This document shows, in pieces, positions 1,041-30,008 of a DNA stretch of 64,000 nucleotides. The position numbers and the translations under genes are program-made. This DNA comes from a virus (Duplodnaviria; Caudoviricetes), in the IMG/VR virus record IMGVR_UViG_3300023170_004399, positions 64,001 to 128,000 of that record; one strand, written 5' to 3'. The notes beneath the pieces are model-generated. The model was not told the origin of the DNA, made no database searches, and was given only the letters and a program-made list of their open reading frames with translations. Each line of letters begins with the position of its first letter. Position 1 is the first letter of the stretch.

Positions 1041-1056
1041 TTAGGAGAATAACAAT

Positions 1057-14828: not shown

Positions 14829-15580
14829 TGAGCGTTAAGATGAAAATAGTTGTTCCTACTTATAATACGGAACATTGGATACAAAGGTGCATTCGTAGTA
14901 TTGCTGCACAGTCTTATAAGAATTTTGAATGTGTGATAATAAACGACTGTTCAACTGATAATACAGGGCACATGATTGATCAGTGTAAAGAAATACAAGG
15001 TGATCCAAGATTTAAAATTGTTCACAATAAAGAAAATGTTAAGGCATTAAAAAATATTGTTGACGGTTTCAACATGTTAAATGCAAAGGAAGAACCTGAA
15101 TCTGTGCTAATGGCTATTGATGGTGATGATTTTTTATACAGTTCAGAGTCTCTTACAGTAGTTGCCCAGTATTATGCGCAACTAAAACCTCTTTTGACTT
15201 ATGGAAATTGGGTTGGGTGGCCGCATGGTACTCATTCTAATAATCGACCTATACCGGATCATGTGCACAATAGGAGAAATTACAGAGATTTGCCTTTTGC
15301 TTTTTCACATTTGCGCACTTTTAAAAGTAAGCTTTGGTACAACATTAAAGATGAAGATTTAAGAGGTCAAGATGGCAAGTATTTTGAATCTGGTTGGGAC
15401 GTTGCTTTTATGTTACCAATGATAGAAATGGCAGGCAAAAGAACTGTTATGATCCCAAATGTTCTATATTGTTATAACATGGTTAATCCTATAAGTGATT
15501 GTAAAATTAGGGGACAACAGCAGATTAGCATTGATAACTATATAAGGACAAAAAAACAGTACAATTTGTTAGGGGGTTAA
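14828..15580 (+). CDS. glycosyltransferase family 2
   Basis: 'VVPTYNTEHWIQRCIRSI', 'INDCSTD', 'IDGDD'. Confidence 0.9.
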   Translation: MSVKMKIVVPTYNTEHWIQRCIRSIAAQSYKNFECVIINDCSTDNTGHMIDQCKEIQGDPRFKIVHNKENVKALKNIVDGFNMLNAKEEPESVLMAIDGDDFLYSSESLTVVAQYYAQLKPLLTYGNWVGWPHGTHSNNRPIPDHVHNRRNYRDLPFAFSHLRTFKSKLWYNIKDEDLRGQDGKYFESGWDVAFMLPMIEMAGKRTVMIPNVLYCYNMVNPISDCKIRGQQQISIDNYIRTKKQYNLLGG

Positions 15581-15581
15581 G

Positions 15582-16664: not shown

Positions 16665-16667
16665 ATC

Positions 16668-18245
16668 ATGAAAAATAATAAAAACATACTAGGGTTTTAT
16701 GGCTCACATGATGCATCAGTAACCTATCTAGACAAAAAAGGAAAAATAAGAATTCTAGAGTTTGAGAGATTTTCTAAAAAAAGATACGCAATGTATTCAG
16801 ATAGGTTTGACCACAGGACAATTGGTACGAATAATGAAACAAGATCAGCTTTTTTAAACTACGTGTCCCAAGATATAAAGACTACTGATGATTTAGTTAT
16901 TGCTTATAATGAGCTTTCTGAAACTGATATTGCTTTTATAAAAAAACATTTTGAAAAAGCAAAATTTATACAATGCAACCATCATCAAGCGCATGCTTAC
17001 TGTGCATATTACCAGTCCCCTTATAAAACAGCACATGTTATATCTTTGGATGGAGGAGGTCTAGATAATGGTGCAGTTTCAATGTCAAAAGTTTTTTATG
17101 CTGACAAAGATAAAGTAGAAGAAATTTTTGACCCAAAGATAGATTTAGGTAATCCATATGCAAAGTTAGGTTACGTAATATCTGAAATAAATCATGGTTA
17201 TGACGGTCAAAAAATGTCACTTGCATATGCTGGTAAAATAATGGGTTTATGTGCATATGGTAATGCAAGAATGGAATGGCTTAAACCAATGCAAAAGTAC
17301 TATAAGCACAAATCTTTGGATAAACTCGCAAAAGATATCGGCTTAATTTTGGGTCAAAATAGCTTAAGTGGACAAGTTGGTTTTGATTTAGCAGCGACCA
17401 GTCAACACGTTTTTGAAGATATAGCTTTTAATTTAGTTAAAAACGTTTTTGATAAGAAAAATGATAATATTATTTTAACCGGTGGTTGTGCACTCAATGT
17501 TTTATTTAATCAAAAATTAAAGCTTTTTTTAAAAAATACTGATTACGATCTTTTCGTGCCACCTAATCCAAACGACTGTGGGCTTTCTTTTGGTCAGTAT
17601 TGCATGTTTAACAATGTAAAGCATAATGACATATTATATAATGGTTTCCCCGTATTAGATTTACAAAAATTAGACGCTGTTGTCAAGAATTACAATGCAA
17701 AAAAAATAAAAACTAGTGACATTGTAGACTTGTTATCGCAGGGAAAAATAATTGGTTTAGTTTATGGTGATTCTGAAGTAGGACCTCGTGCGCTAGGAAA
17801 TAGAAGCATTATTTGTGATCCTAGTTTTAAAAACATGAAAGATGTTTTAAATCTTAAGGTTAAATTTAGAGAGTGGTTCCGTCCATTTGCCCCAGTTTCT
17901 CTTTTAGAAGACGCACCAGTTTTTTTTGATGATGCTTTTGAATCACCGTATATGAGTTATGCCCCAAAAGTAAAGGAAGAATATCAAAATATTTTAAAAG
18001 CTATTACACATGTAGATGGAACGTCAAGACTGCAAACAGTTACAAAAGGGCAACACAAGCTTTTTTATGACATTTTAGTTTGCATGAAAAAAAATAAAAA
18101 AACACCAGTACTGTTAAATACTTCATTTAATATTAAAGGTTATCCTATACTGACAACAATTGAAGATGCGCTGTATGTTTTAAATAACACTGAGCTTGAC
18201 CATGTTATAATTCAAGGCTACTTGTTTTCGAAAAAAGGTTTATGA
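16668..18245 (+). CDS. carbamoyltransferase (NodU/CmcH/TobZ family)
   Basis: 'HDAS', 'HHQAHA', 'DGGG', 'GGCALN', 'EVGPRALGNRS', 'KFREWFRPFAP', 'HVDGTSRLQTV', 'LLNTSFN'. Confidence 0.95.
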   Translation: MKNNKNILGFYGSHDASVTYLDKKGKIRILEFERFSKKRYAMYSDRFDHRTIGTNNETRSAFLNYVSQDIKTTDDLVIAYNELSETDIAFIKKHFEKAKFIQCNHHQAHAYCAYYQSPYKTAHVISLDGGGLDNGAVSMSKVFYADKDKVEEIFDPKIDLGNPYAKLGYVISEINHGYDGQKMSLAYAGKIMGLCAYGNARMEWLKPMQKYYKHKSLDKLAKDIGLILGQNSLSGQVGFDLAATSQHVFEDIAFNLVKNVFDKKNDNIILTGGCALNVLFNQKLKLFLKNTDYDLFVPPNPNDCGLSFGQYCMFNNVKHNDILYNGFPVLDLQKLDAVVKNYNAKKIKTSDIVDLLSQGKIIGLVYGDSEVGPRALGNRSIICDPSFKNMKDVLNLKVKFREWFRPFAPVSLLEDAPVFFDDAFESPYMSYAPKVKEEYQNILKAITHVDGTSRLQTVTKGQHKLFYDILVCMKKNKKTPVLLNTSFNIKGYPILTTIEDALYVLNNTELDHVIIQGYLFSKKGL

Positions 18246-19084
18246 TGAAATATGTTATAACAGCAAAAGGATTATTAGATGTCAATACTGGCAATGGTTC
18301 GTTTTCCGGCGGAACACCAGTTTCTCAAACAGAGTGCGCGACAGAACTTATAATTACAAGATTAGAAGCTATTAATTTATTTAAACAAGGCTTGATAAAC
18401 AGTGACACATGTGTTGTAACATTACCGGAAAGAAGATTTTTATATGAGAATATTTTTACTAAAACAGAGGTGTATAACCCAAGTAAAGTTTATAAAGATT
18501 GCATTGATTTAGTTTCAAATGAAAGTATAGAGAGATTGTGTAAAAAATTGCCTTATAAACCTTTTTACAAATATTTTGACCGTGACAAAAAAGAGATATT
18601 AGATATACCACTTAACAAATCAATACTAAATATGGAGTGTGATCAATTTCTTATTTGTATTCCTAGACTAAAAAACTCAGACACTAGAAGAAATTTAGAA
18701 CAGAATTATTGGGAAAATTTTATAAAAAAAGCTAGTAAAATATATAGTAAAGTATGTGTTTTTGGGAAAGGCAATCAAAATTTAGATAATGGTAAAAATA
18801 TTGTTTATATTGATACACTAAAAGATTATTGTAGTTATTTGCACCACCCAAATTGTGCGCATGTTGTTAGTACAATATCAGGACCATGTCATTATGCGCA
18901 ATCATTTTCAAATACGGGTGGAAAAACTTTGTTAACAATGATTGATAATTATAATTTAATAGAAAAGCATGGAGATGATCCTTCTTACTTTCACCCATGT
19001 ATCAACTTTACAAATATTAAAATTAACTTTATTAAAAAAGTGCCAACAGTTGATGAGCTATTGGAAACACTGGAGGAAAAATGA
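18242..19084 (+). CDS. hypothetical, possibly a divergent GT9-like glycosyltransferase
   Basis: 'RRNLEQNYWENFI' and 'VVSTISGPCHYA' echo the GT9 'K.WP.E.W' and 'DSGPMHLA' motifs; lies inside the glycan island. Confidence 0.4.
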   Translation: MMKYVITAKGLLDVNTGNGSFSGGTPVSQTECATELIITRLEAINLFKQGLINSDTCVVTLPERRFLYENIFTKTEVYNPSKVYKDCIDLVSNESIERLCKKLPYKPFYKYFDRDKKEILDIPLNKSILNMECDQFLICIPRLKNSDTRRNLEQNYWENFIKKASKIYSKVCVFGKGNQNLDNGKNIVYIDTLKDYCSYLHHPNCAHVVSTISGPCHYAQSFSNTGGKTLLTMIDNYNLIEKHGDDPSYFHPCINFTNIKINFIKKVPTVDELLETLEEK

Positions 19085-19431
19085 TAGGTAAAAAATTAGA
19101 CAAATATATTGAGGAAAAAGTTGCTGAAGTGCTTAATAAAACAAAATTTCCGGAATATGATAATATACATAGTGATTCTTTTTCTGAATTGATAGATAAA
19201 CTAATAATTGTGCACACCAGGCTTTGGTATCTTGAAGATGCTTTAAATGTTGAAACTGACCCACATAAAATTGCTGAGTTAAAAAGAAAAGCAGATGTTA
19301 CATTTAAAGAAAAAAGACCTATGTTGGTCAAAGCAATCGATAAAACAATCACAAATATGTGCAATGGAAAATATAATCCAACAGTTGAAAATATAAAAGC
19401 TTATAAAGGTTATAAAAAAGAAAATGAATAA
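19081..19431 (+). CDS. small helical protein, DUF4254-like
   Basis: 'SFSELIDKLIIVHTRLWYLED...IAELKRK...LVKAID' resembles the DUF4254-type pattern seen in glycan clusters. Confidence 0.5.
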   Translation: MIGKKLDKYIEEKVAEVLNKTKFPEYDNIHSDSFSELIDKLIIVHTRLWYLEDALNVETDPHKIAELKRKADVTFKEKRPMLVKAIDKTITNMCNGKYNPTVENIKAYKGYKKENE

Positions 19432-20383
19432 AGATGATAAAATTTTAGTTGCTGGTCATAGAGGATTTGTAGGAAGTAATTTAGCTAAGCACTTAAAAAA
19501 TCTAGGTTATACAAATATTAGTGGTTACACTAGAAAACAAGTAGATCTATCTAACGTACATGAAACTAACTCTCTTTTTAAATCACAAAATTTTGATTAT
19601 GTTTTTATGTGCGCAGCAAAATGTGGCGGATTACAAGCAAATTTAGATGACCCATATAGTTTTTTGTACGATAATTTAGTCGTACAAAATAATTTAATAC
19701 ATGCATCAATAGAAAACCATGTTAAAAAAGTACTGTTTTTAGGTTCAAGTTGCATTTATCCAACAAATTATAAGCAACCACTAAAAGAAGAATACATATT
19801 ACAGGGTCCAGTTGAACCAACAAATGAAGGCTACTCAATTGCTAAAATAGCAGGGCTTAAACTTTGTGAATATGCTAACAGCCTGCTAGGACAAACTCAT
19901 GGCGGCATAAAACATACGACCAAGTTTATTTCACTAATGCCTTGTAATTTATATGGGCCAGGCGACGATTTTGATCTTAGAAATTCACACGTAATGGCAG
20001 CATTAATCAGGAAATTTGTTGAAGCAAAAAAAACAAATGCAAATCACGTAAAAATATGGGGAACTGGTAAAGCCAGGCGTGAATTTTTATACATTGATGA
20101 TTTGTCAAGTTGTATGGTGTGGGCTATGACAAATATTGAAAAGACTAAAACATTTTTAAATGTAGGTACTGGCTGTGACATAAGCATAATAGAATTAGCA
20201 AAAATGATAGCAGAAATAGTAGATTTTAATGGTGACATAGTTTTGCAAAAAGAAAAACCAGAAGGCATGATGAGAAAGTGTTTGGATGTTGAAAAAATAC
20301 AAAAACTTGGTTGGCGACATCAGGTTCTACTGCAAGATGGTGTCAACAAAACAGTAAAATATTATATTGATAATTATTCGTGA
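19424..20383 (+). CDS. fcl: GDP-4-keto-6-deoxymannose epimerase/reductase (GDP-L-fucose synthase; ColC-like)
   Basis: 'VAGHRGFVG', 'AAKCGGLQAN', 'FLGSSCIYP', 'EPTNEGYSIAK', 'MPCNLYGPGDDF', 'SHVMAALIRKF', 'WGTGKARREFLY'. Confidence 0.95.
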   Translation: MNKDDKILVAGHRGFVGSNLAKHLKNLGYTNISGYTRKQVDLSNVHETNSLFKSQNFDYVFMCAAKCGGLQANLDDPYSFLYDNLVVQNNLIHASIENHVKKVLFLGSSCIYPTNYKQPLKEEYILQGPVEPTNEGYSIAKIAGLKLCEYANSLLGQTHGGIKHTTKFISLMPCNLYGPGDDFDLRNSHVMAALIRKFVEAKKTNANHVKIWGTGKARREFLYIDDLSSCMVWAMTNIEKTKTFLNVGTGCDISIIELAKMIAEIVDFNGDIVLQKEKPEGMMRKCLDVEKIQKLGWRHQVLLQDGVNKTVKYYIDNYS

Positions 20384-20390
20384 GTTTCAT

Positions 20391-21218
20391 ATGAATTCTA
20401 AAAAGCCATTAAATATAAATCTCTATGGGGGTGATTTTAGTCACCAATCTTGTAGTACATTAAATCAAGTATCAAAAACTATATCATGGAACATAACGTC
20501 TTATGATAGTAATATAAGTTTTTATGCTGATAAAAAAATAGATAAGTTATTAAGTGATAAAAAAAGTGATGTAGTTTTTGGCTGGCTTCTAGAAGCTAGT
20601 TGTTTAATAAAAAAACAAGTCAGGTATTGCATAAATAATCATAACGCGTTAAAAAAGAAAGCCAAGTTTATTTTTACACATTGTTCAGAACTTTTAAATC
20701 TAGATCCAGATTTTTACAAATTTGCACCGACAGATGGCACATGGATAAAAAAACCAAAAATACATGATAAAACTAAAGCAATATCTTTTATCACTAGTAA
20801 TAAATCATACACAGTCGGACATAAAAAAAGATTACATTACTTAAATAAGTTTCGTTCACACGTCGACCTGTATGGAAGGGGTTTTTTTGAAATAGAAGAA
20901 AAAGAGTATGGCCTTAATGATTACATGTTTTCAATATGCATTGAAAACGATTTTGACAATTTGTTTTTTACAGAGAAAATTTTAGATTGTTTTGCAACCG
21001 GTACTATACCAATATATTTAGGGGCGAAAGACATTGGTAAATATTTTGCTACTGATGGTATTATTTTTTTAGATGAAAATACTGACGTCACCTTGCTGAA
21101 TAAAAATTTGTATCTAAGTAAACTTGATGCTATTAATTATAATTATAAAAAAGTAGTAAATGAATTTATGAATTCTGAAGACTTTATATATCACAACTAT
21201 TTACAAAATATTTTGTAA
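20391..21218 (+). CDS. glycosyltransferase family 10-like (alpha-1,3/4-fucosyltransferase-like)
   Basis: 'YMFSICIEND...FFTEKILDCFATGTIPIYLG' is the GT10 signature; start reassigned to ATG 20391. Confidence 0.8.
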   Translation: MNSKKPLNINLYGGDFSHQSCSTLNQVSKTISWNITSYDSNISFYADKKIDKLLSDKKSDVVFGWLLEASCLIKKQVRYCINNHNALKKKAKFIFTHCSELLNLDPDFYKFAPTDGTWIKKPKIHDKTKAISFITSNKSYTVGHKKRLHYLNKFRSHVDLYGRGFFEIEEKEYGLNDYMFSICIENDFDNLFFTEKILDCFATGTIPIYLGAKDIGKYFATDGIIFLDENTDVTLLNKNLYLSKLDAINYNYKKVVNEFMNSEDFIYHNYLQNIL

Positions 21219-21239
21219 GAATTTTAGGATACTGTTATT

Positions 21240-22052
21240 ATGCTTTGTAGCATTGAAAAATTAATAAATAAAGAATTAAATAAAGATTGTTATGTTCTAG
21301 GTTTAGGACCATCATTAAAAAATAGTTTAGATTTTTTAAAAACTATTGACAGAGAGAAAACTGTTATTATTTCATGTAATCACATTGATGCAATGACGGA
21401 TATTGTGCCAGATTACTGGGTGATTGCTAACAATTTACCTGAATTTAATATTGAACAAAACTATAAAAAGTATAACAAATTTAGAAATACAAAATTGGTA
21501 TATTGTTATAGAGCTTGTAATGCTAGTTATAGAAAAAAATACGTATATCTGAAGCATGACAAATTTTATGATCAAAATCATTTACAGCATGATTTAAACT
21601 TAGTGTCTTGCGATTTTGTCCCCTTTTCCGATTGTCTTTTTTGTCCTCCGGAGTTAAAAAAAATAAATATTAGCGCATGTAAAAGGACACTAAATGAAGT
21701 ATACTGTGATTACATTGGACAAAGTGACTATATGTATTATCACAAAAACGGTGGAAGATGTCATACTGTCGCAACACATATGTTAAAGTTAGCTATAATA
21801 CTTGGCTGCAAGAATATAAATATATCCGGAGTAGATTTAGATTACAGCAAAGGGTATGTTAACAACAGTCCAAAAAATGGTGTTAAACCTAGGAAAAAAT
21901 TGGGTTTAACCCTTATGAAGGCCAAAGGGAGAGATGAAACTATAAAATACATCAAGTTAATTAAAGATGATAGCAAAAAAGTCGGTGTTAAGCTGTATTC
22001 TCTAATAGAAAATGGCAATATAAATTCTGTTCTAGAATATAAAAAAACTTAA
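21240..22052 (+). CDS. Maf/DUF115 (MptE-like, CstII-like) putative CMP-sugar transferase
   Basis: 'CYVLGLGPSL', 'IISCN', 'DYWV', 'TVATHMLKLAIILGCKNINISGVDLDY'. Confidence 0.65.
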   Translation: MLCSIEKLINKELNKDCYVLGLGPSLKNSLDFLKTIDREKTVIISCNHIDAMTDIVPDYWVIANNLPEFNIEQNYKKYNKFRNTKLVYCYRACNASYRKKYVYLKHDKFYDQNHLQHDLNLVSCDFVPFSDCLFCPPELKKINISACKRTLNEVYCDYIGQSDYMYYHKNGGRCHTVATHMLKLAIILGCKNINISGVDLDYSKGYVNNSPKNGVKPRKKLGLTLMKAKGRDETIKYIKLIKDDSKKVGVKLYSLIENGNINSVLEYKKT

Positions 22053-22110
22053 GAATAATTTAAACATGTTTAAGTCTAATAGTATTATATTATAAAAATT
22101 AGAGGTAAAT

Positions 22111-22689
22111 ATGCACATAGATTTTGAAAATATCGAAAATAAATTAGCGTCAAGTATCGACAGCGATGAATATAAAAATTTAGTTGATAAAATTAAAAAA
22201 GTTGATAGAATTTACTTGCTAGGAAATGGTGGTTTGCATTTTGTCGCAGGACACATGTCAACAGATTTAACCAGGTTAATTAAAAACAAAGTAGCTTATT
22301 CATTTGATTCGGTTGGCTTTGTTACTAGTAATGCTAATGATCATGGTTTTGAAAATCTATTTGTTAGATGGTTAGAAACAACGTCTTCTGTTGATTCACC
22401 CGAGAAATGTTTAGTAATAGGCATGTCATGTTCAGGAAACTCTACTAATGTTGTTAATGCACTAGACTGGGCTGAAAAAAATAATTATAAGACTTTTCTA
22501 ATAAGCGGCCAAAAATCACAAAATTTAAGTGCCGGTATCGATGAACTTACTTTTAATTGTAAATATTTTCACACTGTTGAGGTTTTGTGTATGATGTTGT
22601 TTTATGATGTTGTTCATGCTGTCGGCAGTTTGTGTCCATCGATAAATGAAGAAAAGAAAAGATTAGTTAACTCATCTTTGCGAGGTTAA
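22111..22689 (+). CDS. SIS-domain sugar-phosphate isomerase, GmhA-like (divergent)
   Basis: 'IYLLGNGG', 'TSNANDHGFENLF', 'IGMSCSGNSTNVVNALDWA'. Confidence 0.8.
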   Translation: MHIDFENIENKLASSIDSDEYKNLVDKIKKVDRIYLLGNGGLHFVAGHMSTDLTRLIKNKVAYSFDSVGFVTSNANDHGFENLFVRWLETTSSVDSPEKCLVIGMSCSGNSTNVVNALDWAEKNNYKTFLISGQKSQNLSAGIDELTFNCKYFHTVEVLCMMLFYDVVHAVGSLCPSINEEKKRLVNSSLRG

Positions 22690-22690
22690 T

Positions 22691-23077
22691 ATGATACCAA
22701 GATTGCATTCATTTGATGATGAAACTAAACAAATAGGTATAGATTTTGACGGCGTTATTCATGCAAACTCTAAAGGTTTTTTTGATGGCACCGTTTATGA
22801 TGTACCTGTTCCAGGTTCTATAGAAGCAATTAAAAAAATATCTAAAAAATATGACATTGTAGTTTTTAGCGCAAAAGCGAGAACAGATAGAATGTTAATA
22901 AATGGTAAGACTGGTGTAGAACTCATTAAGGATTGGTTGCAAAAACACGGCATATTAAAATATGTAAAAGAAGTAACAGCAGAAAAGCCTCGTGCTGTTG
23001 CTTACATTGATGACAAAGCGATAAGATTTACCACATGGGAAAATGTGTTTGACAATATGGATGATTTAGGAATATGA
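22691..23077 (+). CDS. HAD-superfamily phosphatase (capsule-biosynthesis type)
   Basis: Motif I 'IGIDFDGVI', motif II 'VFSA', motif IV 'YIDDKAIRF'. Confidence 0.8.
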   Translation: MIPRLHSFDDETKQIGIDFDGVIHANSKGFFDGTVYDVPVPGSIEAIKKISKKYDIVVFSAKARTDRMLINGKTGVELIKDWLQKHGILKYVKEVTAEKPRAVAYIDDKAIRFTTWENVFDNMDDLGI

Positions 23078-24264
23078 AAATAGTTGCAATAGTACCAGCG
23101 CTATCTGGTGGGCAAAGGTTACCAAATAAAAACCTTTTATTGGTCGATGGTGAACCAATGATAAGTTATGTACTTTCCGCTTTAACAAAAACAACTGCCA
23201 TAAACGATGTGTTTGTAAGTACTGATATTCCGGAAATTAAAAACTTCGTAAATTTAAATTTTAAAGAAGTAAAGTGCGTTGATAGATTATCAAACTATGG
23301 TGGGACTAGCTGCAAGATGAAAAATGCATCTGCAGATTGCAATGGAAAAAGATGTCAGGTACACGATCACTACCTCTATGATTTTATTAATAATGTTGAT
23401 GCTGACATATTAATACAAGTGCATACCACATCACCACTTTTAAAAGCTTCAACCATTAATTCTTTTGTACAAAAAATGTTAGATGAAGATTTAGATTCTT
23501 GCTTTGCAGTTAACAACCACCAAAAAGAGTGTTTGCTTTCTTCCGCACCTATCAATTTTTCTTTAAAAAAGAAGACTCCAACACAAGATTTAAAAGTTGT
23601 TTCAGAGATAGCTTGGGCAATTTCCGGATGGAAAATTACATCATTTAGAGACGCTTATGAAAAAAATCAAAGTCCATCGTTTGTTGGCAAAATTGGTTGG
23701 CACCCAATAAACAAGCTGGAAGCTATAGACGTTGACGACTGGGAAGATTTATACATTGCTGAAGCTTGTTTATCACATGCAAAACGTATTGAAAATGTCG
23801 GACAAAAAAAATTAACAATCGAAACAACTAGCATAGAACGAGAATTAAAAGATTTAATTGAGAAAGATGGTTGTACACAATCTGAAAAAGTAACATATAA
23901 TCAAATTCTAAACAATATATATATTGCTAAAAATGAAATGGGCACCGGGTCATGGTGTTACCCAGTCATTATCACGGACAATGATCAAGCGTGTTTTATC
24001 CAACAAGTACCGGGTGAAGGCTGTAGATGGCACAATCACCCAACTAAAGATGAGTTCTGGATTGTTATGGATGGTAAATTTGCATTTGAAATAGACGGGT
24101 TTGAACCGGTTATTGCAAAAAAAGGCGATGTTGTTTATGCAAAAAAAGGAATAAATCACAGAATTACATGTGTTGGCGATAAACCAGGTATAAGATTAGC
24201 TTGTGGAGAGAGAAATTTTGCTCACATATATGAAAACAATGAGCCACCTAAGAGATTTAAATGA
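23074..24264 (+). CDS. acylneuraminate/KDO-type cytidylyltransferase fused to a C-terminal cupin
   Basis: 'IVPALSGGQRLPNKNLLLVDGEPMI', 'VSTD', 'QVHTTSPLL', 'IDVDDWED'; cupin 'PGEGCRWHNHPTKDEFWIVMDG...KKGINHRI'. Confidence 0.85.
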   Translation: MKIVAIVPALSGGQRLPNKNLLLVDGEPMISYVLSALTKTTAINDVFVSTDIPEIKNFVNLNFKEVKCVDRLSNYGGTSCKMKNASADCNGKRCQVHDHYLYDFINNVDADILIQVHTTSPLLKASTINSFVQKMLDEDLDSCFAVNNHQKECLLSSAPINFSLKKKTPTQDLKVVSEIAWAISGWKITSFRDAYEKNQSPSFVGKIGWHPINKLEAIDVDDWEDLYIAEACLSHAKRIENVGQKKLTIETTSIERELKDLIEKDGCTQSEKVTYNQILNNIYIAKNEMGTGSWCYPVIITDNDQACFIQQVPGEGCRWHNHPTKDEFWIVMDGKFAFEIDGFEPVIAKKGDVVYAKKGINHRITCVGDKPGIRLACGERNFAHIYENNEPPKRFK

Positions 24265-24926
24265 ATTTAATAATGCTTGGACATACTGGCTCAATTGGTC
24301 ATTACATTTTTAATAAATATAAAAATCAAGGTTTCAATATCACTGGTTACTCGAGTAAAGATTTTAATGCGGAATCTGATAGTGACGTAAAAAATATTGC
24401 CGAAAAAATACGTAATACTAAAAAAATCGACGGTTTTATAAATTGTATGGGTGTTGTCGATTTACCTGAGTATAAAAATGTGGTTTCTTTTAACAAACTT
24501 TTAAACATTAATTTAAAAGCTGCATTTGCTTTAAGCGTAGCCGCAGCTGAAAATATGAAAAGCCACAAAAGTGGTTCAATCATAAACATTGGTTCAATTG
24601 CATCAAATAATGTGAGAATTGGCCGGGTAGGTTATACTGCTACAAAAGCTGGTCTTGAGGGACTAACTAGAGCTTTGGCAATAGAATATGCACAATATAA
24701 TATTAAAATAAATTGTGTTGCCCCTGGACCTACTGAAACTGATTTGTTAAGAAATACCTTAAGTAAAAAAGATTTTAAAAATTTAATAACACTAATGCCA
24801 ATGCAAAATTTAGTACAACCTAATGATATTTACACTACAGTTGATTTTATTCTAACAAAAAATAACTGTATAACTGGCCAAACAATTGTGGTTGATGGTG
24901 GATTAAGTATCAAATCTAATTTTTAA
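24261..24926 (+). CDS. short-chain dehydrogenase/reductase (SDR)
   Basis: 'GHTGSIG', 'INCMG', 'IINIGS', catalytic 'YTATKAG', 'NCVAPGPTET', 'TGQTIVVDGG'. Confidence 0.9.
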   Translation: MNLIMLGHTGSIGHYIFNKYKNQGFNITGYSSKDFNAESDSDVKNIAEKIRNTKKIDGFINCMGVVDLPEYKNVVSFNKLLNINLKAAFALSVAAAENMKSHKSGSIINIGSIASNNVRIGRVGYTATKAGLEGLTRALAIEYAQYNIKINCVAPGPTETDLLRNTLSKKDFKNLITLMPMQNLVQPNDIYTTVDFILTKNNCITGQTIVVDGGLSIKSNF

Positions 24927-24937
24927 TAAAGGAAAAT

Positions 24938-25726
24938 ATGATATCAGTTAACTTAATGGGTCGTTTTGGAAATCAGCTTTTTCAAATTGCCACTGCAGAA
25001 TCATTGGCTATTGATAATGGTGCATCGACAGTCTATTTTAACACTGTTGCTGGTACAACCCCTAAGCTGCATGAAACAATGTTATATATGAATACTTATT
25101 ACAACAAAATAAATTTTTTACCACATAACCTAATAAAATCTTTTAAATTTAATGTGTGCAGTGAGAAAGAATTCGCATTTAATCCAATTCGATACAGCCC
25201 AAATATGCTGCTAAATGGATATTTCCAATCAGAAAAATATTTTTTTCACAATGGTCATTTGATTAAAAAATTATTAAGCATGCCCGACAAGCAAATTAAA
25301 GTTATAAAACAGTTGCACCCGGATTTATTTGCGACAAACTTAAATGATTATGCTTGTGTACATGTACGCCGCGGCGATTATGTAAATTTGTCTAATGTAC
25401 ATACGAATCTAGCAGAGGATACTAATTATTACATTGATGCAATGCGTGAATTCGAGAATAAAAAATTTATTTTTTTCTCCGATGATATTTCTTGGTGTGC
25501 TAATTATTTTGGTAAAGAGCATACGTATTTTACTAGTGCATGTGACATATATGATTTTTACATAATGGGTTTGTTTAATAATGTTATAATGAGTAATTCA
25601 ACCTATTCATGGTGGTCTACTTGGTTGTATGAAAAAGATGACAAAAAAATAATAGCACCAAAAAAATGGTTCTCTAATAATATAAATTCAAATGATTTAA
25701 TACCTAACAGGTGGAGTTTAGTATGA
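24938..25726 (+). CDS. glycosyltransferase family 11 (alpha-1,2-fucosyl/colitosyltransferase-like)
   Basis: 'GRFGNQLFQ', 'GYFQSEKYF', 'VHVRRGDY', 'FSDDISWC', 'SNSTYSWW'. Confidence 0.92.
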   Translation: MISVNLMGRFGNQLFQIATAESLAIDNGASTVYFNTVAGTTPKLHETMLYMNTYYNKINFLPHNLIKSFKFNVCSEKEFAFNPIRYSPNMLLNGYFQSEKYFFHNGHLIKKLLSMPDKQIKVIKQLHPDLFATNLNDYACVHVRRGDYVNLSNVHTNLAEDTNYYIDAMREFENKKFIFFSDDISWCANYFGKEHTYFTSACDIYDFYIMGLFNNVIMSNSTYSWWSTWLYEKDDKKIIAPKKWFSNNINSNDLIPNRWSLV

Positions 25727-26874
25727 TAAAATTAGTACAAGATACTATTGACTACAGTGACATAGAATACTTAATTAGTTGGTTGAAAACAAACCCAAGA
25801 TTAACTAAAGGGCCAATAACTCAACAGTTTGAGAAAGAATGGGCATCTTTTCAGGGTGTTGGTTACACTACTTATGTTAACTCCGGTTCTTCTGCAATAC
25901 TTTTAATGTTATATGCACTAATAGTTGCAAAAAAAATAAAGCCCGGTGACAAAATAATTGTGCCGGCAATTTCTTGGGCAACAGATTTAGCACCAGTTAT
26001 ACAGTTAGGCCTTGTACCAATATTATGTGATTGCAATCTAGATGACTTATCAGTTGACCTAGATGCTTTGGAAAAACTATGTGCTGATGAAAAACCAAGT
26101 GCTTTGATATTAGTTTCAGTTTTAGGCCTAGTTCCTAAAATGGATAGTATTGTAGATATATGTCAAAAGTATAACGTTGTATTACTTGAAGATGTTTGTG
26201 AATCTTTGTATTCTCAGCACAAGGGGAAACAGCTTGGTAATTTTGGTTTAATGTCTTGTTTTTCATTATATTTTGGTCATCACATTTCTACGATTGAAGG
26301 TGGTATAATTTCTACAAACTGTGATGAAATGAATTGCATTTTAAAATCAATAAGAAATCATGGTTGGGACAGAGATCTAAACACAAACAAACAAAAAGCA
26401 TTACGAAAAGAACATAACGTATCTGACTTTGATGCTTTATATACTTTCTACTACCCGGGTTTCAATGTGCGTGCCACAGATTTGCAAGCATATTTAGGAC
26501 TAAAACAGCTAGGAAAAATAAAACCTTATTCAGAAAAGCGTGAGGAAAATTACAAGCATTACCAAAAATCCTTACCGGATTCTTTTTGGAAACCAGTCTA
26601 TAGAAAAAATACGTTTATATCTAGTTTTTGTTATCCTATCATACATGAAAAAAGGGACAAAATAGTTGCTAACTTATTAAAAAACAATGTCGAGTGTAGA
26701 CCGCTTATTTGTGGCACAATGGGTAGACAGCCAATGTATGTTTCAAGGTATGGTGTAAAAAAATTAAAAAATGCTGATTATGTTTCTAAATATGGTTTTT
26801 ATATACCTAATCATCAAAATTTAACTTTTAAAAATATTGATAATATAGTTAATATTATAACAGAAACAATTTAA
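25723..26874 (+). CDS. colD: PLP-dependent DegT-family enzyme with active-site His (ColD-like GDP-4-keto-6-deoxymannose 3-dehydratase)
   Basis: 'NSGSSA', 'EDVCES', and 'SLYFGHHISTIEGG' with His at the position of the usual Schiff-base Lys. Start reassigned to ATG 25723, which has a GGAG RBS. Directly upstream of gmd. Confidence 0.7.
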   Translation: MIKLVQDTIDYSDIEYLISWLKTNPRLTKGPITQQFEKEWASFQGVGYTTYVNSGSSAILLMLYALIVAKKIKPGDKIIVPAISWATDLAPVIQLGLVPILCDCNLDDLSVDLDALEKLCADEKPSALILVSVLGLVPKMDSIVDICQKYNVVLLEDVCESLYSQHKGKQLGNFGLMSCFSLYFGHHISTIEGGIISTNCDEMNCILKSIRNHGWDRDLNTNKQKALRKEHNVSDFDALYTFYYPGFNVRATDLQAYLGLKQLGKIKPYSEKREENYKHYQKSLPDSFWKPVYRKNTFISSFCYPIIHEKRDKIVANLLKNNVECRPLICGTMGRQPMYVSRYGVKKLKNADYVSKYGFYIPNHQNLTFKNIDNIVNIITETI

Positions 26875-26887
26875 ATAGGTAAACACA

Positions 26888-27865
26888 ATGAAGAAAACAG
26901 CGTTAGTAACCGGTGTCACTGGTCAAGATGGCTCTTATTTAGTAGAATTTTTACTCGAAAAGGGTTATAGAGTTATTGGTATTAAAAGAAGGACTAGTCT
27001 TATAGCAACGGGGAGAATAGACCACTTATTATCAAATGACAATTTTATTTTAAAATATGGTTCAATGCATGACTCCGGATGGATGTACGAAGTTATTTCA
27101 AAATATAAACCGCAAGAAATATATAATTTAGCAGCACAAAGTCATGTACGCGTAAGTTTTGATTGTTCTATTGAAACTGTTGATATTGTTGCGACAGGGA
27201 CTTTGCGTTTATTAGAAGCTTGTCGATTATTATGCCCGGAAGTAAAATTTTATCAAGCTTCATCTTCTGAAATGTTTGGTGACAACCCTGTCAACCCACA
27301 GAGTGAAACTACAAAGCTGCAGCCAGCATCACCATATGCATGCGCTAAAGTTTTTTCACACAATCTTATGCATAATTATCGGCAAAGTTATAATATGTTT
27401 TGCTGCTCAGGCATACTTTTTAATCATGAATCTCCCAGAAGAGGGGAAACTTTTGTTACTAGAAAAATTACAAGAGCTGCAGCTAGAATTAAACTAGGTT
27501 TGCAAGATAAATTATATTTAGGCAATCTAGAAGCCAAACGTGACTGGGGGCATTCAAAAGATTATGTTGAAGCAATGTGGTTGATGTTACAACAGAAAGT
27601 GCCTGATGATTTTGTCATAGCGACGGGAAAGACTTACTCTGTAGCAGAGTTTTTAAAGACAGTTTTTGATTATGCTGGATTAAGTATTGAAAAACATGTT
27701 GAGTTTGATAAAAGGCTGCTAAGACCTCATGAGGTGCCTTTGTTGTTAGGGGATCCAAGTAAAGCTAAAAAAGTTTTAGGGTGGAAACCTAAATATGACA
27801 TGCATAGTTTAGCAAAAGAAATGTATGATTCTGATTACATATATTTTAAAAACTTTTTAACATAA
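26888..27865 (+). CDS. gmd: GDP-mannose 4,6-dehydratase
   Basis: 'TGVTGQDGSYL', 'YNLAAQSHVRVSF', 'YQASSSEMFG', 'PASPYACAK', 'FNHESPRRGETFVTRKIT', 'RDWGH'. Confidence 0.97.
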   Translation: MKKTALVTGVTGQDGSYLVEFLLEKGYRVIGIKRRTSLIATGRIDHLLSNDNFILKYGSMHDSGWMYEVISKYKPQEIYNLAAQSHVRVSFDCSIETVDIVATGTLRLLEACRLLCPEVKFYQASSSEMFGDNPVNPQSETTKLQPASPYACAKVFSHNLMHNYRQSYNMFCCSGILFNHESPRRGETFVTRKITRAAARIKLGLQDKLYLGNLEAKRDWGHSKDYVEAMWLMLQQKVPDDFVIATGKTYSVAEFLKTVFDYAGLSIEKHVEFDKRLLRPHEVPLLLGDPSKAKKVLGWKPKYDMHSLAKEMYDSDYIYFKNFLT

Positions 27866-27919
27866 AAACACAAAACTGTTGGTATATTATCTTATATATT
27901 TAAAATAGGATTAATTATT

Positions 27920-28771
27920 ATGATGTTACCAACTGGAAAAGCACACATATCGTTTAGTGAAATTAAGCTATGGGCAGAATGTTCTTATAGGCATAAGTTG
28001 ACATATGTTGATAAGTTAGATGCGTATCAAGATAACCAATATGCTGATTTTGGAACAATATGCCACAACCATATTGAGATATTTTTAAAATCAAAAAAAC
28101 CAATATCAGAAGATCAAGTAATTATTGATTTTAAAAACATGTGGAAAGAAAGAAGGTACGATAGTGATGAGTTTATTTTAGAAAAAAAGGAAAGCGATAA
28201 GAAATACAAACATGTTTATTTAGAAACCTGGGTTAAATATGCATTGCAAATATTAAGTGAATTCCCGGAGTGGATGAATAGCACGTTTCCCGATTATCAA
28301 GTTTTATCAGTCGAAGAATTGCTGATGGAAGACATAGAAGGTCATGATCAAAAATTTAAAGGCTTTATTGATTGTATAATAAAAGTGCCAAAGAAAAATG
28401 ATAAATATTTATATTACATTATTGATTGGAAAACGACAGGCCCTGGAGGCTGGTTTTATCTCAAAAAAAGGGATTTTAACAGTTTAGCACAAATTGGTAT
28501 GTATAAGCTGTTTTGGTCAAAAAAATATGAAGACATCAATGTCAAAGATATAAGAACCGCTTTTGTATTTCTAAAAAGAGGTGCAAAACCTGGGAAGTGT
28601 ATAGATATATTTACAGTGTCAACTGGGCCGAAGTTTTTAGAAAAATCTAGTAAACTAATTAACACAATGCTTTATAATGTTAAGAAAGGTGTTGCATTGC
28701 GAAATTATAGCAATTGCAAATTTTGTCCATTTAAAAATACGGAGCATTGCAGTGGTGGAGAATACACGTAA
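27920..28771 (+). CDS. PD-(D/E)XK nuclease, Cas4/RecB-like with putative Fe-S staple
   Basis: 'SFSEIKLWAEC', 'KGFIDCII', 'IIDWKT', 'QIGMY', C-terminal 'CKFCPFKNTEHC'. Confidence 0.85.
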   Translation: MMLPTGKAHISFSEIKLWAECSYRHKLTYVDKLDAYQDNQYADFGTICHNHIEIFLKSKKPISEDQVIIDFKNMWKERRYDSDEFILEKKESDKKYKHVYLETWVKYALQILSEFPEWMNSTFPDYQVLSVEELLMEDIEGHDQKFKGFIDCIIKVPKKNDKYLYYIIDWKTTGPGGWFYLKKRDFNSLAQIGMYKLFWSKKYEDINVKDIRTAFVFLKRGAKPGKCIDIFTVSTGPKFLEKSSKLINTMLYNVKKGVALRNYSNCKFCPFKNTEHCSGGEYT

Positions 28772-30008
28772 AAAAAAGATAGTAGTTTTATCAGATCACG
28801 CGCTATCTACTAGTGGCGTAGGTACGCAGACTAGACACTTAATACATGGTTTGTTAGAAAAAGGCACGTGGTCTTTTAGGCAGTTAGGTGCAGCTATGAA
28901 ACATGCATCATATGACGTTATTACAGTAAATGATGATTTTATTATTAAACCAGTTGATGGATTTGGCACTAAAGAACAAATACGATTAATATTAGCTACA
29001 GAGAAACCTGACGGTATTTTAATATTTACTGACCCAAGATTTTTCGTTTGGTTTTTCGAAATAGAAGATGAAGTAAGACAAGTTTGTCCAATATTTTATT
29101 GGCACGTATGGGATAATGCACCATATCCGGCTTTTAATAATCCTTATTATGATTCATGTGATCTGATTAATTGTCATAGTTACCACACCTTCGAACAAGT
29201 TTCCGAAAAATACCCAGAAAAGACTAATTTTGTGCCGCACGCTTTGCCAAACGATATTTTTTATGAAATACCAGAAGAAGAAAAAAATGCAATGAAAAAG
29301 CAGTTTTTTGGCGACTCCGGGGAAGATTTGTTTATTGGTTTCTGGATGAATAGAAATGCAAAAAGAAAGAGGCCAGGCGACTTATTGCTAGCATGGTCTA
29401 TGTTTATAAAAACGTTAGAGAAAAATCACGGACACAAAAAAGCTAAACTAATAATGCACACTGATCCTAGAGATAATGAAGGGCCTAATTTAATTGCAAT
29501 AGTAGATATGTTAGGAATAAGAGATAATGTTTTATTTTCTAATCAGAGAGTTGGATTTAAAGAAATAAATATATTGCATAATATTGCTGATTTTACTATC
29601 AACATATCTTTTGCAGAAGGGTTTGGTCTTTCAACACTAGAAGCTATGCAAACGGGGACACCTATTATTGCTCCTAAGACTGGCGGTCAAACACGACAAG
29701 TAGTTGATCACCGTGATGGCAGCGAAAATGGTTTTGCTTTGCCTATTGAATTTAAAACTTTAGTTGGCTCACAAAATGTGCCTTACATTTATGAAGATTA
29801 CACTAGCATAGAAACTATTGCAGAAAAAATTACTGCTATGTATGAGTTAGGAAAAGAAGGTCGAAAAGCTTTAGGTGAAAAAGCAAAAAAATATGTCGAA
29901 AGTGAGTTTAACTATCAAAAAACAATAGACTTGTGGCATGATACAATGAATGAAACAATAGAGAAGTTTCAAAAAAACACTAGAAGATTTACTTGGAGTA
30001 GTTTATAA
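28755..30008 (+). CDS. glycosyltransferase family 4
   Basis: 'SGVGTQTR', 'NRNAKRKRPGDLL', 'EGFGLSTLEAMQTGTPII'; likely GTG start at 28755 with GGAG upstream. Confidence 0.9.
   Translation: MENTRKKKIVVLSDHALSTSGVGTQTRHLIHGLLEKGTWSFRQLGAAMKHASYDVITVNDDFIIKPVDGFGTKEQIRLILATEKPDGILIFTDPRFFVWFFEIEDEVRQVCPIFYWHVWDNAPYPAFNNPYYDSCDLINCHSYHTFEQVSEKYPEKTNFVPHALPNDIFYEIPEEEKNAMKKQFFGDSGEDLFIGFWMNRNAKRKRPGDLLLAWSMFIKTLEKNHGHKKAKLIMHTDPRDNEGPNLIAIVDMLGIRDNVLFSNQRVGFKEINILHNIADFTINISFAEGFGLSTLEAMQTGTPIIAPKTGGQTRQVVDHRDGSENGFALPIEFKTLVGSQNVPYIYEDYTSIETIAEKITAMYELGKEGRKALGEKAKKYVESEFNYQKTIDLWHDTMNETIEKFQKNTRRFTWSSL

What the first reader, a model, noticed from the sequence alone, without database searches (positions are those of the whole stretch)
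19424..27865. Complete GDP-colitose/GDP-fucose route with GT11 and GT10 transferases in a phage
Seen: gmd (26888), a DegT-fold enzyme whose Schiff-base Lys is replaced by His ('FGHHISTIEGG', His186 counting from ATG 25723), and an Fcl/ColC epimerase-reductase (19424), plus GT11 and GT10 genes. Established: Gmd, then ColD (PLP-dependent 3-dehydratase with an active-site His instead of Lys), then ColC gives GDP-L-colitose, as in E. coli O55/O111 and Vibrio cholerae O139; without ColD, Gmd plus Fcl gives GDP-L-fucose; GT11 makes alpha-1,2 and GT10 alpha-1,3/4 linkages. Inference: the phage makes the rare 3,6-dideoxyhexose colitose (perhaps also fucose) and could build a doubly substituted H/Lewis-like epitope. 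GDP-mannose supply genes (manB/manC) are not in the window, so host GDP-Man is presumably used.
Basis: partly seen in the sequence, partly recalled or inferred. Interest (0 to 1): 0.75.

Follow-up and report, generated by a model that had tools for sequence, protein, structure and literature searches.

The report
Phage GDP-colitose-type sugar cassette
A large salt-marsh/marine phage carries the enzymes that bacteria use to turn GDP-mannose into L-fucose and, very probably, its rare 3-deoxy relative colitose, plus two transferases to attach them. The set is real, but it proves common in uncultured phages and this scan has already found it many times.

Summary
These genes are intact:
- Gmd, 26888-27865
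- a DegT-fold enzyme, 25723-26874, whose His186 aligns with ColD His188
- an Fcl-family epimerase/reductase, 19424-20383
- GT10, about 20391-21218
- GT11, 24938-25726

The window is a phage, with baseplate genes just downstream.

The DegT enzyme lacks the E1 iron-sulfur cysteines. It groups with characterised ColD and away from E1 (support 100/99). However, it is only 34% identical to ColD and belongs to a large uncharacterised sister clade.

The reductase sits in the Fcl clade, not with E. coli O55 ColC (AU p 0.006). Its three closest clade-mates directly abut ColD-like genes.

In 67 related phage loci the ColD-like gene travels with Gmd (52), an Fcl-family reductase (54), GT11 (40) and GT10 (34).

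Best reading: Gmd, then a ColD-type 3-dehydratase, then an Fcl-like reductase give GDP-L-colitose, probably alongside GDP-L-fucose. Soluble transferases then attach the sugars.

The cassette is not rare. At least 591 IMG/VR contigs carry the dehydratase, and cultured cyanophage S-CAM7 has the same cassette under other names. This scan had already noted the trio on other DNA (70 notes, at least 47 genomes). I found no paper reporting colitose synthesis by a phage. The product sugar and its acceptor remain untested.

The parts
26888..27865 (+). Gmd, GDP-mannose 4,6-dehydratase (325 aa, short type)
   Evidence: TIGR01472 scores 443.2 bits against a cut-off of 415. The best PDB hits are all GDP-mannose 4,6-dehydratases, E 1e-93 to 1e-109. 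It is 54% identical to E. coli Gmd, with S126/E128/Y150/K154 at the catalytic positions.
25723..26874 (+). ColD-like PLP/PMP-dependent sugar 3-dehydratase (383 aa), with His186 in place of the Schiff-base Lys
   Evidence: PDB phmmer scores: ColD 2gms 207 bits, E1 167, perosamine synthase 123. His186 equals ColD H188. The E1 CxC...C cysteines are absent. The tree puts it on the ColD side and excludes E1, support 100/99. GHH is invariant in 36 homologues.
24938..25726 (+). GT11 glycosyltransferase (262 aa), candidate alpha-1,2 colitosyl/fucosyltransferase
   Evidence: PF01531 E 8e-28. HVRRGD at residue 142; 26% identical over the full length to E. coli O55 WbgN. Its stop overlaps the ColD-like start as ATGA.
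19424..20383 (+). Fcl-family GDP-4-keto-6-deoxyhexose epimerase/4-reductase (319 aa), the only candidate for the ColC step
   Evidence: NF047922 scores 374 bits (cut-off 500; E. coli Fcl 551, E. coli ColC 304). S108, C110, Y137, K141 and H189 are conserved. It lies in the Fcl clade, in a 4-member subclade whose other members all abut ColD-like genes.
20391..21218 (+). GT10-like fucosyltransferase-fold enzyme (about 275 aa)
   Evidence: PF00852 scores 38.5 bits against a cut-off of 23.9. PDB hits are alpha-1,3-fucosyltransferases, and FSICIEN..FTEK aligns to FSLAFEN..VTEK.
21240..24926 (+). Five-gene block between the two halves of the cassette: MptE/Maf-like, GmhA-like SIS, HAD-like 128 aa, CTP_transf_3-cupin fusion, FabG-like SDR. 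This is a separate CMP-sugar sub-pathway, not part of the GDP route.
   Evidence: Pfam and NCBIfam hits. DFDGV motif in the 128-aa protein. Homologues occur in only 1-4 of the 88 ColD-like phage loci. The relative L186 has a NeuB-containing block at the same place.
12158..31183 (+). Surrounding glycan island: GT2 x3, GT7-like, carbamoyltransferase, PD-(D/E)XK, GT4 x2. All are soluble proteins, and the island lies just upstream of the baseplate genes (34249, 34757).
   Evidence: Pfam. No multi-pass membrane protein. The island is syntenic with L025, L186 and L188.

Best explanation
During infection the phage diverts GDP-mannose into GDP-linked 6-deoxy and 3,6-dideoxy L-sugars.

The proposed steps:
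1. Gmd makes GDP-4-keto-6-deoxy-D-mannose.
2. The His-type, Fe-S-free DegT enzyme removes the 3-OH by ColD-type chemistry: a PMP Schiff base, proton abstraction by His186, loss of the 3-OH, hydrolysis, and PMP regenerated from glutamate. No E3 reductase is needed.
3. The Fcl-clade reductase epimerises C5 and reduces C4. This gives GDP-L-colitose, which is 3-deoxy-L-fucose.
4. Acting directly on the Gmd product, the same reductase probably also gives GDP-L-fucose.
5. GT11 and GT10 attach whichever GDP-L-sugar is available to a soluble or cytoplasmic-face acceptor. That acceptor is built by the other transferases of the island.

Shown: gene identities, catalytic residues, phylogenetic placement and gene linkage. 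Inferred: the GDP substrate, the stereochemistry of the product, the fucose/colitose split, the linkages and the acceptor.
For: - Gmd passes its equivalog cut-off.
- The best solved relative of the DegT enzyme is ColD. His186 aligns with H188, and D157, E160, S181, R217, N248, R250 and R326 align with identical ColD residues.
- The E1/SpnQ cysteines C251, C253 and C261 are absent. They are present only in the Salmonella RfbH and Streptomyces rows.
- The tree reads: E1 clade | [canonical ColD + (S-CAM7 + window family)], support 100/99.
- In 67 phage loci with at least 3 kb of flank on both sides, 52 hold Gmd, 54 hold an Fcl-family SDR (37 of them adjacent), and 44 hold both. The two alternative SDR clades co-occur in only one locus.
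- The window SDR's subclade-mates L100, L091 and bac_L109 all abut a ColD-like gene.
- Of the three closest SDR homologues whose contigs I read (P0122 73%, P0127 64%, P0126 62%), chosen without regard to ColD, two lie in islands with a GHH DegT and a Gmd.
- In E. coli O55 the characterised ColD and ColC genes are adjacent, with a GT11 (WbgN) in the same cluster.
- GT11 enzymes accept both GDP-Col and GDP-Fuc (PMC11987014).
- Colitose has the C4/C5 stereochemistry of fucose, so an Fcl-type enzyme would give it from the 3-deoxy substrate (established chemistry plus inference).
Against: - No member of the window's dehydratase clade has been characterised. It is only 34% identical to ColD, and it has Gly where ColD has Ser187.
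- GDP specificity rests on gene context alone.
- The reductase is nearer to Fcl (45%) than to ColC (36%). The AU test rejects placing it with canonical ColC (p 0.006, though I named the group after seeing the tree).
- In this window the reductase lies 5.3 kb from the dehydratase, next to GT10. A plain fucose module is therefore possible.
- One of the three closest reductase homologues examined has no ColD-like gene within 8 kb.
- The loci used for the linkage counts were chosen for having a ColD-like gene. Linkage of the SDR to ColD is therefore partly built in.
Confidence: 0.6

Rival explanations
1. Two separate products. Gmd plus the Fcl-like enzyme make only GDP-L-fucose, used by the neighbouring GT10. 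The ColD-like product, GDP-4-keto-3,6-dideoxy-D-mannose, is taken by a different enzyme such as the FabG-like SDR at 24261 or a host reductase. That would give a D-series 3,6-dideoxyhexose or another derivative, not colitose.
For: The reductase is in the Fcl clade and overlaps GT10, 5.3 kb from the dehydratase. Related loci pair the dehydratase with other partners. These include Rmd-like SDRs in 19 of 67 loci, and a sugar C-methyltransferase in 3 loci (L002). In C. jejuni different C4-reductases give different 3,6-dideoxy stereoisomers (PMC10440746).
Against: The window has no second Fcl/Rmd-family reductase. The FabG-like SDR belongs to the inserted CMP-sugar block, and SDR-cupin pairs recur with that block in L186 and L188. 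In L100, L091, L188 and a Cyclobacteriaceae genome, close relatives of this very reductase are the only partner abutting the dehydratase.
Confidence: 0.17
2. A 3,6-dideoxyheptose route of the C. jejuni HS:5 type. The GmhA-like SIS protein feeds a GDP-heptose, which Gmd, the dehydratase and the reductase then process.
For: ColD homologues do act on GDP-6-deoxy-4-keto-heptose in C. jejuni (PMC10440746). A GmhA-like SIS gene (E 7e-16, below cut-off) and a HAD-like gene lie between the two halves of the cassette.
Against: No heptose kinase and no HddC-type guanylyltransferase were found in the scanned ORFs. The only nucleotidyltransferase is of the CMP-ulosonate type, CTP_transf_3. Gmd passes the GDP-mannose dehydratase equivalog cut-off, and all its strong PDB hits are mannose enzymes. 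SIS homologues occur in only 4 of the 88 loci that carry the cassette.
Confidence: 0.05
3. The DegT enzyme works as an aminotransferase and yields a GDP-4-amino-4,6-dideoxy sugar of the perosamine type.
For: The fold is that of sugar aminotransferases, with perosamine synthase at 123 bits. SpnQ transaminates when no reductase is present (PMC8987622).
Against: The Schiff-base Lys is replaced by His throughout the clade. The true aminotransferases ArnB and WecE keep Lys. ColD and E1 showed no transferase activity under the same conditions as SpnQ (PMC8987622). The constant pairing with an Fcl-family 4-reductase makes sense only if the 4-keto group survives.
Confidence: 0.05
4. An E1/RfbH-type CDP-hexose 3-dehydrase, as GenBank and JGI annotate relatives.
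For: Automatic names on homologues, such as 'CDP-6-deoxy-D-xylo-4-hexulose-3-dehydrase'. RfbH is the best NCBIfam hit, at 221 bits.
Against: That score is far below the cut-off of 423, and true ColD scores 263 on the same model. Three of the four Fe-S cysteines are missing. The tree excludes it from the E1 clade. No rfbF/rfbG or E3 gene was found among the scanned ORFs, whereas Salmonella rfbH sits beside rfbF and rfbG.
Confidence: 0.02

Closest known systems
E. coli O55:H7 GDP-L-colitose pathway (Gmd, ColD/WbdK, ColC/WbdJ) with the GT11 colitosyltransferase WbgN
   Same: The enzyme families and reaction logic are the same. Both have the catalytic His, no Fe-S cluster, a dehydratase linked to an Fcl-family reductase, and a GT11 with the HxRRGD motif in the same cluster.
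   Different: The dehydratase is 34% identical, sits in a sister clade, and has GHH instead of SHH. The reductase is Fcl-clade, not ColC-clade (AU p 0.006). The window has no Wzx, Wzy or other membrane proteins. The setting is a phage structural region, not an O-antigen locus.
Cultured cyanophages: the S-CAM7 / ACG-2014f cassette, and the S-SCSM1 Gmd-Fcl-fucosyltransferase genes
   Same: S-CAM7 has Gmd, 'GDP-L-fucose synthetase', a GHH DegT and a GT11 in a row, 4 kb from a tail fibre gene. S-SCSM1 has Gmd, Fcl and an alpha-1,2-fucosyltransferase, read as cell-surface modification genes (PMC9602691).
   Different: The S-CAM7 dehydratase is a third deep lineage, 33% identical to both the window protein and ColD. 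It is annotated as a CDP-sugar dehydrase or as hypothetical. In the searches I ran, no paper called the set a colitose route.
C. jejuni HS:5/HS:11 GDP-3,6-dideoxyheptose pathway
   Same: A 4,6-dehydratase, then a ColD-type PLP 3-dehydratase, then C5 epimerisation and C4 reduction of a GDP-sugar (PMC10440746).
   Different: In C. jejuni the substrate is a heptose, and the epimerase (a cupin) and the reductase are separate proteins. Its dehydratases are 62-67% identical to E. coli ColD, far closer than the window's.
E1 (RfbH/DdhC) and SpnQ 3-dehydrases
   Same: DegT fold with His in place of Lys, and C3 deoxygenation of a 4-keto-6-deoxy NDP-hexose (PMC8987622).
   Different: E1 and SpnQ bind [2Fe-2S] through CxC...C and need a reductase partner. 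The window protein lacks those cysteines and branches outside that clade.
Virus-encoded GDP-fucose synthesis and virion glycosylation (chlorovirus GMD/GMER; mycobacteriophage capsid and tail glycans)
   Same: Viral Gmd plus a fucose-synthase-type enzyme, and viral soluble glycosyltransferases acting without host ER or Wzx-type machinery (PMC5408694 listed; Freeman et al. 2023 as cited).
   Different: To my knowledge neither system includes a 3-dehydratase. The target of glycosylation in this phage is unknown.

Membership tests
ColD (GDP-4-keto-6-deoxy-D-mannose 3-dehydratase) | His replaces the PLP Schiff-base Lys (ColD H188) | tested here: met
   His186 aligns with residue 188 of wild-type, H188K and H188N ColD chains. 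His is invariant in the clade, while ArnB and WecE have Lys.
ColD (GDP-4-keto-6-deoxy-D-mannose 3-dehydratase) | No [2Fe-2S] site, so no E3 or ferredoxin partner is needed | tested here: met
   The columns of E1 C251, C253 and C261 hold L, T and L (T at C253, L at the other two), with a short deletion, as in ColD.
ColD (GDP-4-keto-6-deoxy-D-mannose 3-dehydratase) | Groups with characterised ColD rather than with E1/SpnQ or aminotransferases | tested here: met
   The ColD-side clade has 100/99 support, rooted on ArnB and WecE.
ColD (GDP-4-keto-6-deoxy-D-mannose 3-dehydratase) | Lies inside the clade of biochemically characterised ColDs (which are mutually 59-67% identical) | tested here: not met
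   It is 34% identical to E. coli ColD and sits in a sister clade with no characterised member (PMC10440746).
ColD (GDP-4-keto-6-deoxy-D-mannose 3-dehydratase) | Uses the Gmd product (a GDP-sugar) as substrate | not testable with these tools
   Context only. Gmd starts 13 nt downstream, and it is present in 52 of 67 related loci. The Arg residues that contact the nucleotide are shared with E1, so they do not discriminate.
ColC (GDP-L-colitose synthase) | Belongs to the clade of E. coli O55 ColC | tested here: not met
   E. coli ColC and the Sulfitobacter partner form their own clade (100/99). Forcing the window SDR into it costs 38.8 lnL, p-AU 0.0055.
ColC (GDP-L-colitose synthase) | SDR Ser/Tyr/Lys triad plus the Cys/His acid-base pair for epimerisation | tested here: met
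   S108, Y137, K141, C110 and H189 are invariant across Fcl, ColC and the phage SDRs. They therefore do not separate Fcl from ColC.
Fcl (GDP-L-fucose synthase, NF047922 equivalog) | Score above the curated cut-off (500 bits) | tested here: not met
   The window SDR scores 373.7 bits. E. coli Fcl scores 551 and E. coli ColC 304. In the tree it still lies in the Fcl clade.
Gmd (TIGR01472) | Score above the curated cut-off, with the catalytic residues present | tested here: met
   443.2 bits against 415. S126, E128, Y150 and K154 are present.
GT11 (alpha-1,2-fucosyl/colitosyltransferases) | Pfam PF01531 above the gathering score, and the HxRRxD motif | tested here: met
   97.9 bits against 23.9. 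HVRRGD at residue 142 aligns with HIRRGD of WbgN. Donor and linkage were not tested.
GT10 (alpha-1,3/4-fucosyltransferases) | Pfam PF00852 above the gathering score, and the FEN...TEK donor-binding motif | tested here: met
   38.5 bits against 23.9, C-terminal domain only. The motif aligns with the plant FucTA and H. pylori FucT. My knowledge of what the motif does is from memory.
E1 / RfbH (NF011936) | Curated cut-off, the Fe-S cysteine motif, and CDP-glucose genes nearby | tested here: not met
   221 bits against 423. The cysteines are absent. No rfbF/rfbG was found among the scanned ORFs, unlike in Salmonella.
Wzx/Wzy-type O-antigen or capsule cluster | Polytopic flippase, polymerase, ligase or priming transferase | tested here: not met
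   No ORF in the window has more than two hydrophobic segments by a Kyte-Doolittle scan. The island proteins have none or one, and the two weak segments in the ColD-like enzyme are core strands.

The most novel reading that the evidence does not exclude
The cassette caps a phage-made glycan on virion proteins with colitose and/or fucose. The likely targets are the fibres or baseplate encoded beside the island. Swapping sugar cassettes between related phages would then give these phages exchangeable 'serotypes', a viral counterpart of O-antigen diversity. The swaps seen are colitose-type, NeuB-type, C-methyl and carbamoyl cassettes, all at one conserved site before the PD-(D/E)XK, GT4, GT4 and baseplate genes. 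The window's dehydratase clade, which is also widespread in SAR406, Pelagibacterales, Nitrospira and Patescibacteria, would then be a major unrecognised source of 3,6-dideoxyhexoses in the sea.
Probability: 0.25. Interest if true: 0.7.

Novelty: new member of a known kind. Interest (0 to 1): 0.38.

Why it matters
Colitose is known as a terminal O-antigen sugar of a few Gram-negative bacteria, and it is recognised by immune lectins and antibodies.

If phages make it, several things follow:
- 3,6-dideoxyhexose synthesis would be a common viral trait in aquatic systems.
- Many database entries now named 'CDP-sugar 3-dehydrase', 'aminotransferase' or 'hypothetical' would need renaming.
- The large sister clade of ColD would gain a testable function.
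- The island would be a tractable case for asking what phage-built glycans decorate: the virion, the host surface, or something else.

The enzymology itself would not surprise a specialist.

Tried and rejected
- Megablast of the 8.4-kb stretch against GenBank phages found no match.
- No whole genome is held for this window, so the reported PMM region upstream could not be read.
- The primary ColD and E1 structure papers are not held. My assignment of contact residues in ColD is therefore from memory, and I use it only as conservation.
- The T4 late-promoter motif TATAAATA is not enriched: 7 found against 14 expected. Sigma-70-like promoters and terminators are at chance level. I make no statement on timing of expression.
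- No RNA holder is listed among the sequencing runs, so expression is untested.
- Laying contigs of four runs on the island showed identical fragments in other salt-marsh and marine samples. Depth spiked over the conserved Gmd core. The only joints had 20-35-nt sides at 90% likeness, which I regard as spurious. I found no usable evidence of cassette variation within this population.
- No PDB sequence match for GT11.
- I did not run structure prediction, fold search or complex prediction. Sequence matches to solved ColD, Fcl and Gmd were already unambiguous, and no binding claim is made.
- The catalytic residues of the reductase do not separate Fcl from ColC.

Full report
**What is there**

Window 12158-31183 is one co-directional block of tightly spaced or overlapping genes on the + strand. 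The finding's five genes are all intact.

- **Gmd (26888-27865).**
  - It passes the curated equivalog cut-off of TIGR01472 (443 against 415 bits).
  - All its strong solved relatives are GDP-mannose 4,6-dehydratases.
  - It is 54% identical to E. coli Gmd.
  - Ser126, Glu128, Tyr150 and Lys154 sit at the catalytic positions.
- **DegT-fold gene.**
  - It most likely starts at ATG 25723. AGGTGGAG lies six bases upstream, and the ATG overlaps the GT11 stop as ATGA.
  - The motif FGHHISTIEGG is at residues 184-194.
- **SDR at 19424-20383.** It is an Fcl-family enzyme.
- **GT11 (24938-25726).** It matches PF01531 at 8e-28 and has HVRRGD at residue 142.
- **GT10-like gene.**
  - It matches PF00852 above the gathering score.
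  - Its FSICIEN...FTEK aligns with the donor-site motif of solved alpha-1,3-fucosyltransferases.
  - Its real start is probably ATG 20391.

The window is phage DNA:

- A baseplate wedge gene and a gp25-like gene follow the island.
- The proteins lie on a 269,730-bp contig.
- Near-identical DNA is held by salt-marsh and some marine metagenomes.

**Is the DegT enzyme a ColD?**

- Its best solved relative is E. coli ColD (207 bits). E1 follows at 167 bits, an NDP-hexose 3-dehydratase at 132, and perosamine synthase at 123.
- The PDB holds H188K and H188N ColD mutants. Their alignments fix His186 of the window protein as the equivalent of ColD His188.
- I fetched reference sequences for a tree:
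  - ColD, ColC, WbgN, Fcl and Gmd from E. coli O55:H7 CB9615;
  - a Salmonella rfbH (E1) beside rfbF and rfbG;
  - a Streptomyces rfbH-like gene;
  - a Sulfitobacter gmd-fcl-DegT cluster.
- In a tree rooted on the Lys-type aminotransferases ArnB and WecE, the E1 and Streptomyces pair splits off first. The remaining clade has 100/99 support and holds canonical ColD (E. coli + Sulfitobacter), the cyanophage S-CAM7 protein, and a large clade of phage and bacterial proteins that includes the window's.
- Every member of that ColD-side clade has His at the catalytic column. Only the E1-type rows have the CxC...C iron-sulfur ligands. Those ligands define the E1/SpnQ mechanism (PMC8987622).
- So the enzyme is a His-type, Fe-S-free 3-dehydratase on the ColD side.
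- It is not a canonical ColD, however. Identity is 34%, Gly replaces ColD Ser187, and no member of its clade has been characterised.

**The reductase**

- The window SDR is 45% identical to E. coli Fcl and 36-37% identical to E. coli O55 ColC.
- On the Fcl equivalog model it scores 374 bits. That lies between true Fcl (551) and true ColC (304), and below the cut-off of 500.
- The Ser/Tyr/Lys triad and the Cys/His epimerisation pair are conserved in all of them, so they do not discriminate.
- Phylogenetically, E. coli ColC and the Sulfitobacter partner form their own clade. The window SDR lies in the Fcl clade.
- Forcing the window SDR into the ColC clade is rejected (delta lnL 38.8, p-AU 0.0055). 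The caveat is that I named the group after seeing a first tree.
- Its well-supported four-member subclade holds two phage proteins and one Cyclobacteriaceae protein. All three directly abut a ColD-like gene.
- As a check not conditioned on ColD, I searched for the closest homologues of the SDR itself and read three contexts:
  - The 73%-identical one lies in a 302-kb phage with the same split layout: Fcl-like, GT11, an inserted nonulosonate block, then a GHH DegT and Gmd.
  - The 64%-identical one is contiguous with a GHH DegT and Gmd.
  - The 62%-identical one has no ColD-like gene within 8 kb.
- Colitose is 3-deoxy-L-fucose. An Fcl-type enzyme acting on the 3-deoxy 4-keto sugar would therefore give exactly colitose. 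That step is inference.

**Comparative linkage**

- The dehydratase family is abundant.
  - At least 560 species-representative bacterial genomes carry it. They include SAR406, Pelagibacterales, Rhodobacterales, Nitrospira, Elusimicrobia and Patescibacteria.
- Among 67 phage loci with at least 3 kb on both sides:

| Feature in the locus | Loci out of 67 |
|---|---|
| Gmd | 52 |
| Fcl-family SDR | 54 (adjacent in 37) |
| Gmd and SDR together | 44 |
| GT11 | 40 |
| GT10 | 34 |

- Most phages use a separate, phage-rich SDR clade as the partner. Fcl-clade and phage-clade SDRs occur together in only one locus, as expected if they fill the same role.
- In 65 bacterial loci, 29 hold an Fcl-clade SDR and 20 a phage-type SDR. 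Only 18 hold Gmd within 6 kb.
- These loci were selected for the dehydratase, so the SDR linkage is partly built in.
- Cultured cyanophage S-CAM7 has Gmd, 'GDP-L-fucose synthetase', a GHH DegT annotated as a CDP-sugar 3-dehydrase, and a GT11 in a row, near a tail fibre gene. The ACG-2014f isolates carry the same DegT.

**Layout in this window**

- The nearest syntenic phage, L025, has GT10 ... SDR-GT11-ColD-Gmd-PD-(D/E)XK-GT4-GT4 ... baseplate.
- Here the cassette is split. Fcl-like and GT10 lie upstream. Then comes a five-gene block (21240-24926): MptE/Maf-like, GmhA-like SIS, HAD-like, CTP_transf_3-cupin fusion and FabG-like SDR. GT11, ColD-like and Gmd follow.
- Homologues of that block occur in only 1-4 of 88 loci. 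L186 has a NeuB-containing block at the same place. The block is therefore an independent CMP-sugar module.
- This argues against the C. jejuni-type 3,6-dideoxyheptose reading. That reading would also need a heptose kinase and a guanylyltransferase, and neither was found in the ORFs I scanned.

**What is glycosylated**

- No protein in the window looks like a flippase, polymerase, ligase or priming transferase. The island proteins have no more than one hydrophobic segment.
- The system is therefore built of soluble enzymes and sits in the structural region, just upstream of the baseplate genes. This fits glycosylation of virion proteins. It also fits action on cytoplasmic-face lipid-linked host intermediates. 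I have no direct evidence for either.
[quoted passage not shown] The sugar supply, not the transferase family, therefore sets the product (PMC11987014).

**Precursor supply**

- No manB/manC-type gene was found in the ORFs scanned.
- The window begins with SpoVR and PrkA.
- In a relative with the same backbone, these genes are preceded by PMM, a nucleotidyltransferase, an MPI-type cupin, NUDIX and DUF444.
- A first-stage note places such genes 2.5 kb before this window. I could not read that DNA.

**Novelty**

- The chemistry is textbook.
- Phage Gmd, Fcl and fucosyltransferase genes are already published (PMC9602691).
- The full cassette is already in GenBank phages under other names.
- This scan has already flagged the trio 70 times in at least 47 genomes. 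One follow-up report reached the same reading.
- In the full-text searches I ran, I found no paper that reports phage-encoded colitose synthesis.
- This report adds four points:
  - placement of the phage dehydratases as an uncharacterised sister clade of ColD;
  - the finding that this phage's reductase is Fcl-clade rather than ColC-clade;
  - the linkage statistics;
  - the modular, membrane-free island context.
- Verdict: a real and ordinary-for-its-kind cassette, a new member of a known kind. The product, colitose with or without fucose, awaits a simple in vitro test.

Noticed in passing
window 21240-24926: A five-gene CMP-sugar block: MptE/Maf-like transferase, GmhA-like SIS, a 128-aa HAD-like protein with a DFDGV motif, a CTP_transf_3-cupin fusion and a FabG-like SDR. 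No ulosonate synthase is present. The related phage L186 has a NeuB + CTP_transf_3 + aminotransferase + SDR + cupin + methyltransferase block at the same site.
   Followed up: partly
L002 3359-12395 (related phage contig): In some relatives the ColD-like gene is flanked by a truncated DegT paralogue (218 aa), a sugar C-methyltransferase (Methyltransf_13/14), a B12-radical SAM enzyme, UDP-glucose dehydrogenase and extra SDRs. This suggests branched or otherwise modified deoxysugars rather than plain colitose.
   Followed up: no
window 3-2979 and L187: The window starts with SpoVR and PrkA homologues, which are sporulation/stress-kinase-type genes. In the relative L187 they follow DUF444, NUDIX, an MPI-type cupin, a nucleotidyltransferase and a eukaryote-type PMM. 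The PrkA-DUF444-SpoVR triad in a phage is unusual.
   Followed up: partly
window 16668-19431; L001, L186, L188: The carbamoyltransferase and the following 280-aa protein of no known family are a conserved pair. In relatives a 421-aa amine-oxidase-like flavoprotein comes next, before the Fcl-like gene. Here a 116-aa DUF4254 protein takes that place.
   Followed up: no
L103-L182 (bacterial genomes): The window's dehydratase clade is widespread in uncultured marine and groundwater bacteria: SAR406 at 55-56% identity, Pelagibacterales, Nitrospira, Elusimicrobia and Patescibacteria. It is usually next to an Fcl-family SDR. This points to a large unrecognised reservoir of 3,6-dideoxyhexose synthesis.
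   Followed up: partly
L061, L083, L052 (viral contigs): Some phage loci carry two ColD-like copies about 5 kb apart.
   Followed up: no
window 38052-41420: A 1122-aa structural-region protein has a concanavalin-A-like (Laminin_G_3) lectin/glucanase domain at residues 155-313. It is a possible glycan-binding fibre or baseplate component.
   Followed up: no
window 7691-8989: A PIN-PhoH fusion protein (432 aa) lies upstream of the island.
   Followed up: no
window 26763-28032: Metagenome contig depth rises 5- to 40-fold over the conserved core of Gmd in all four runs laid. This shows that many other organisms in these samples share near-identical stretches of this gene.
   Followed up: no
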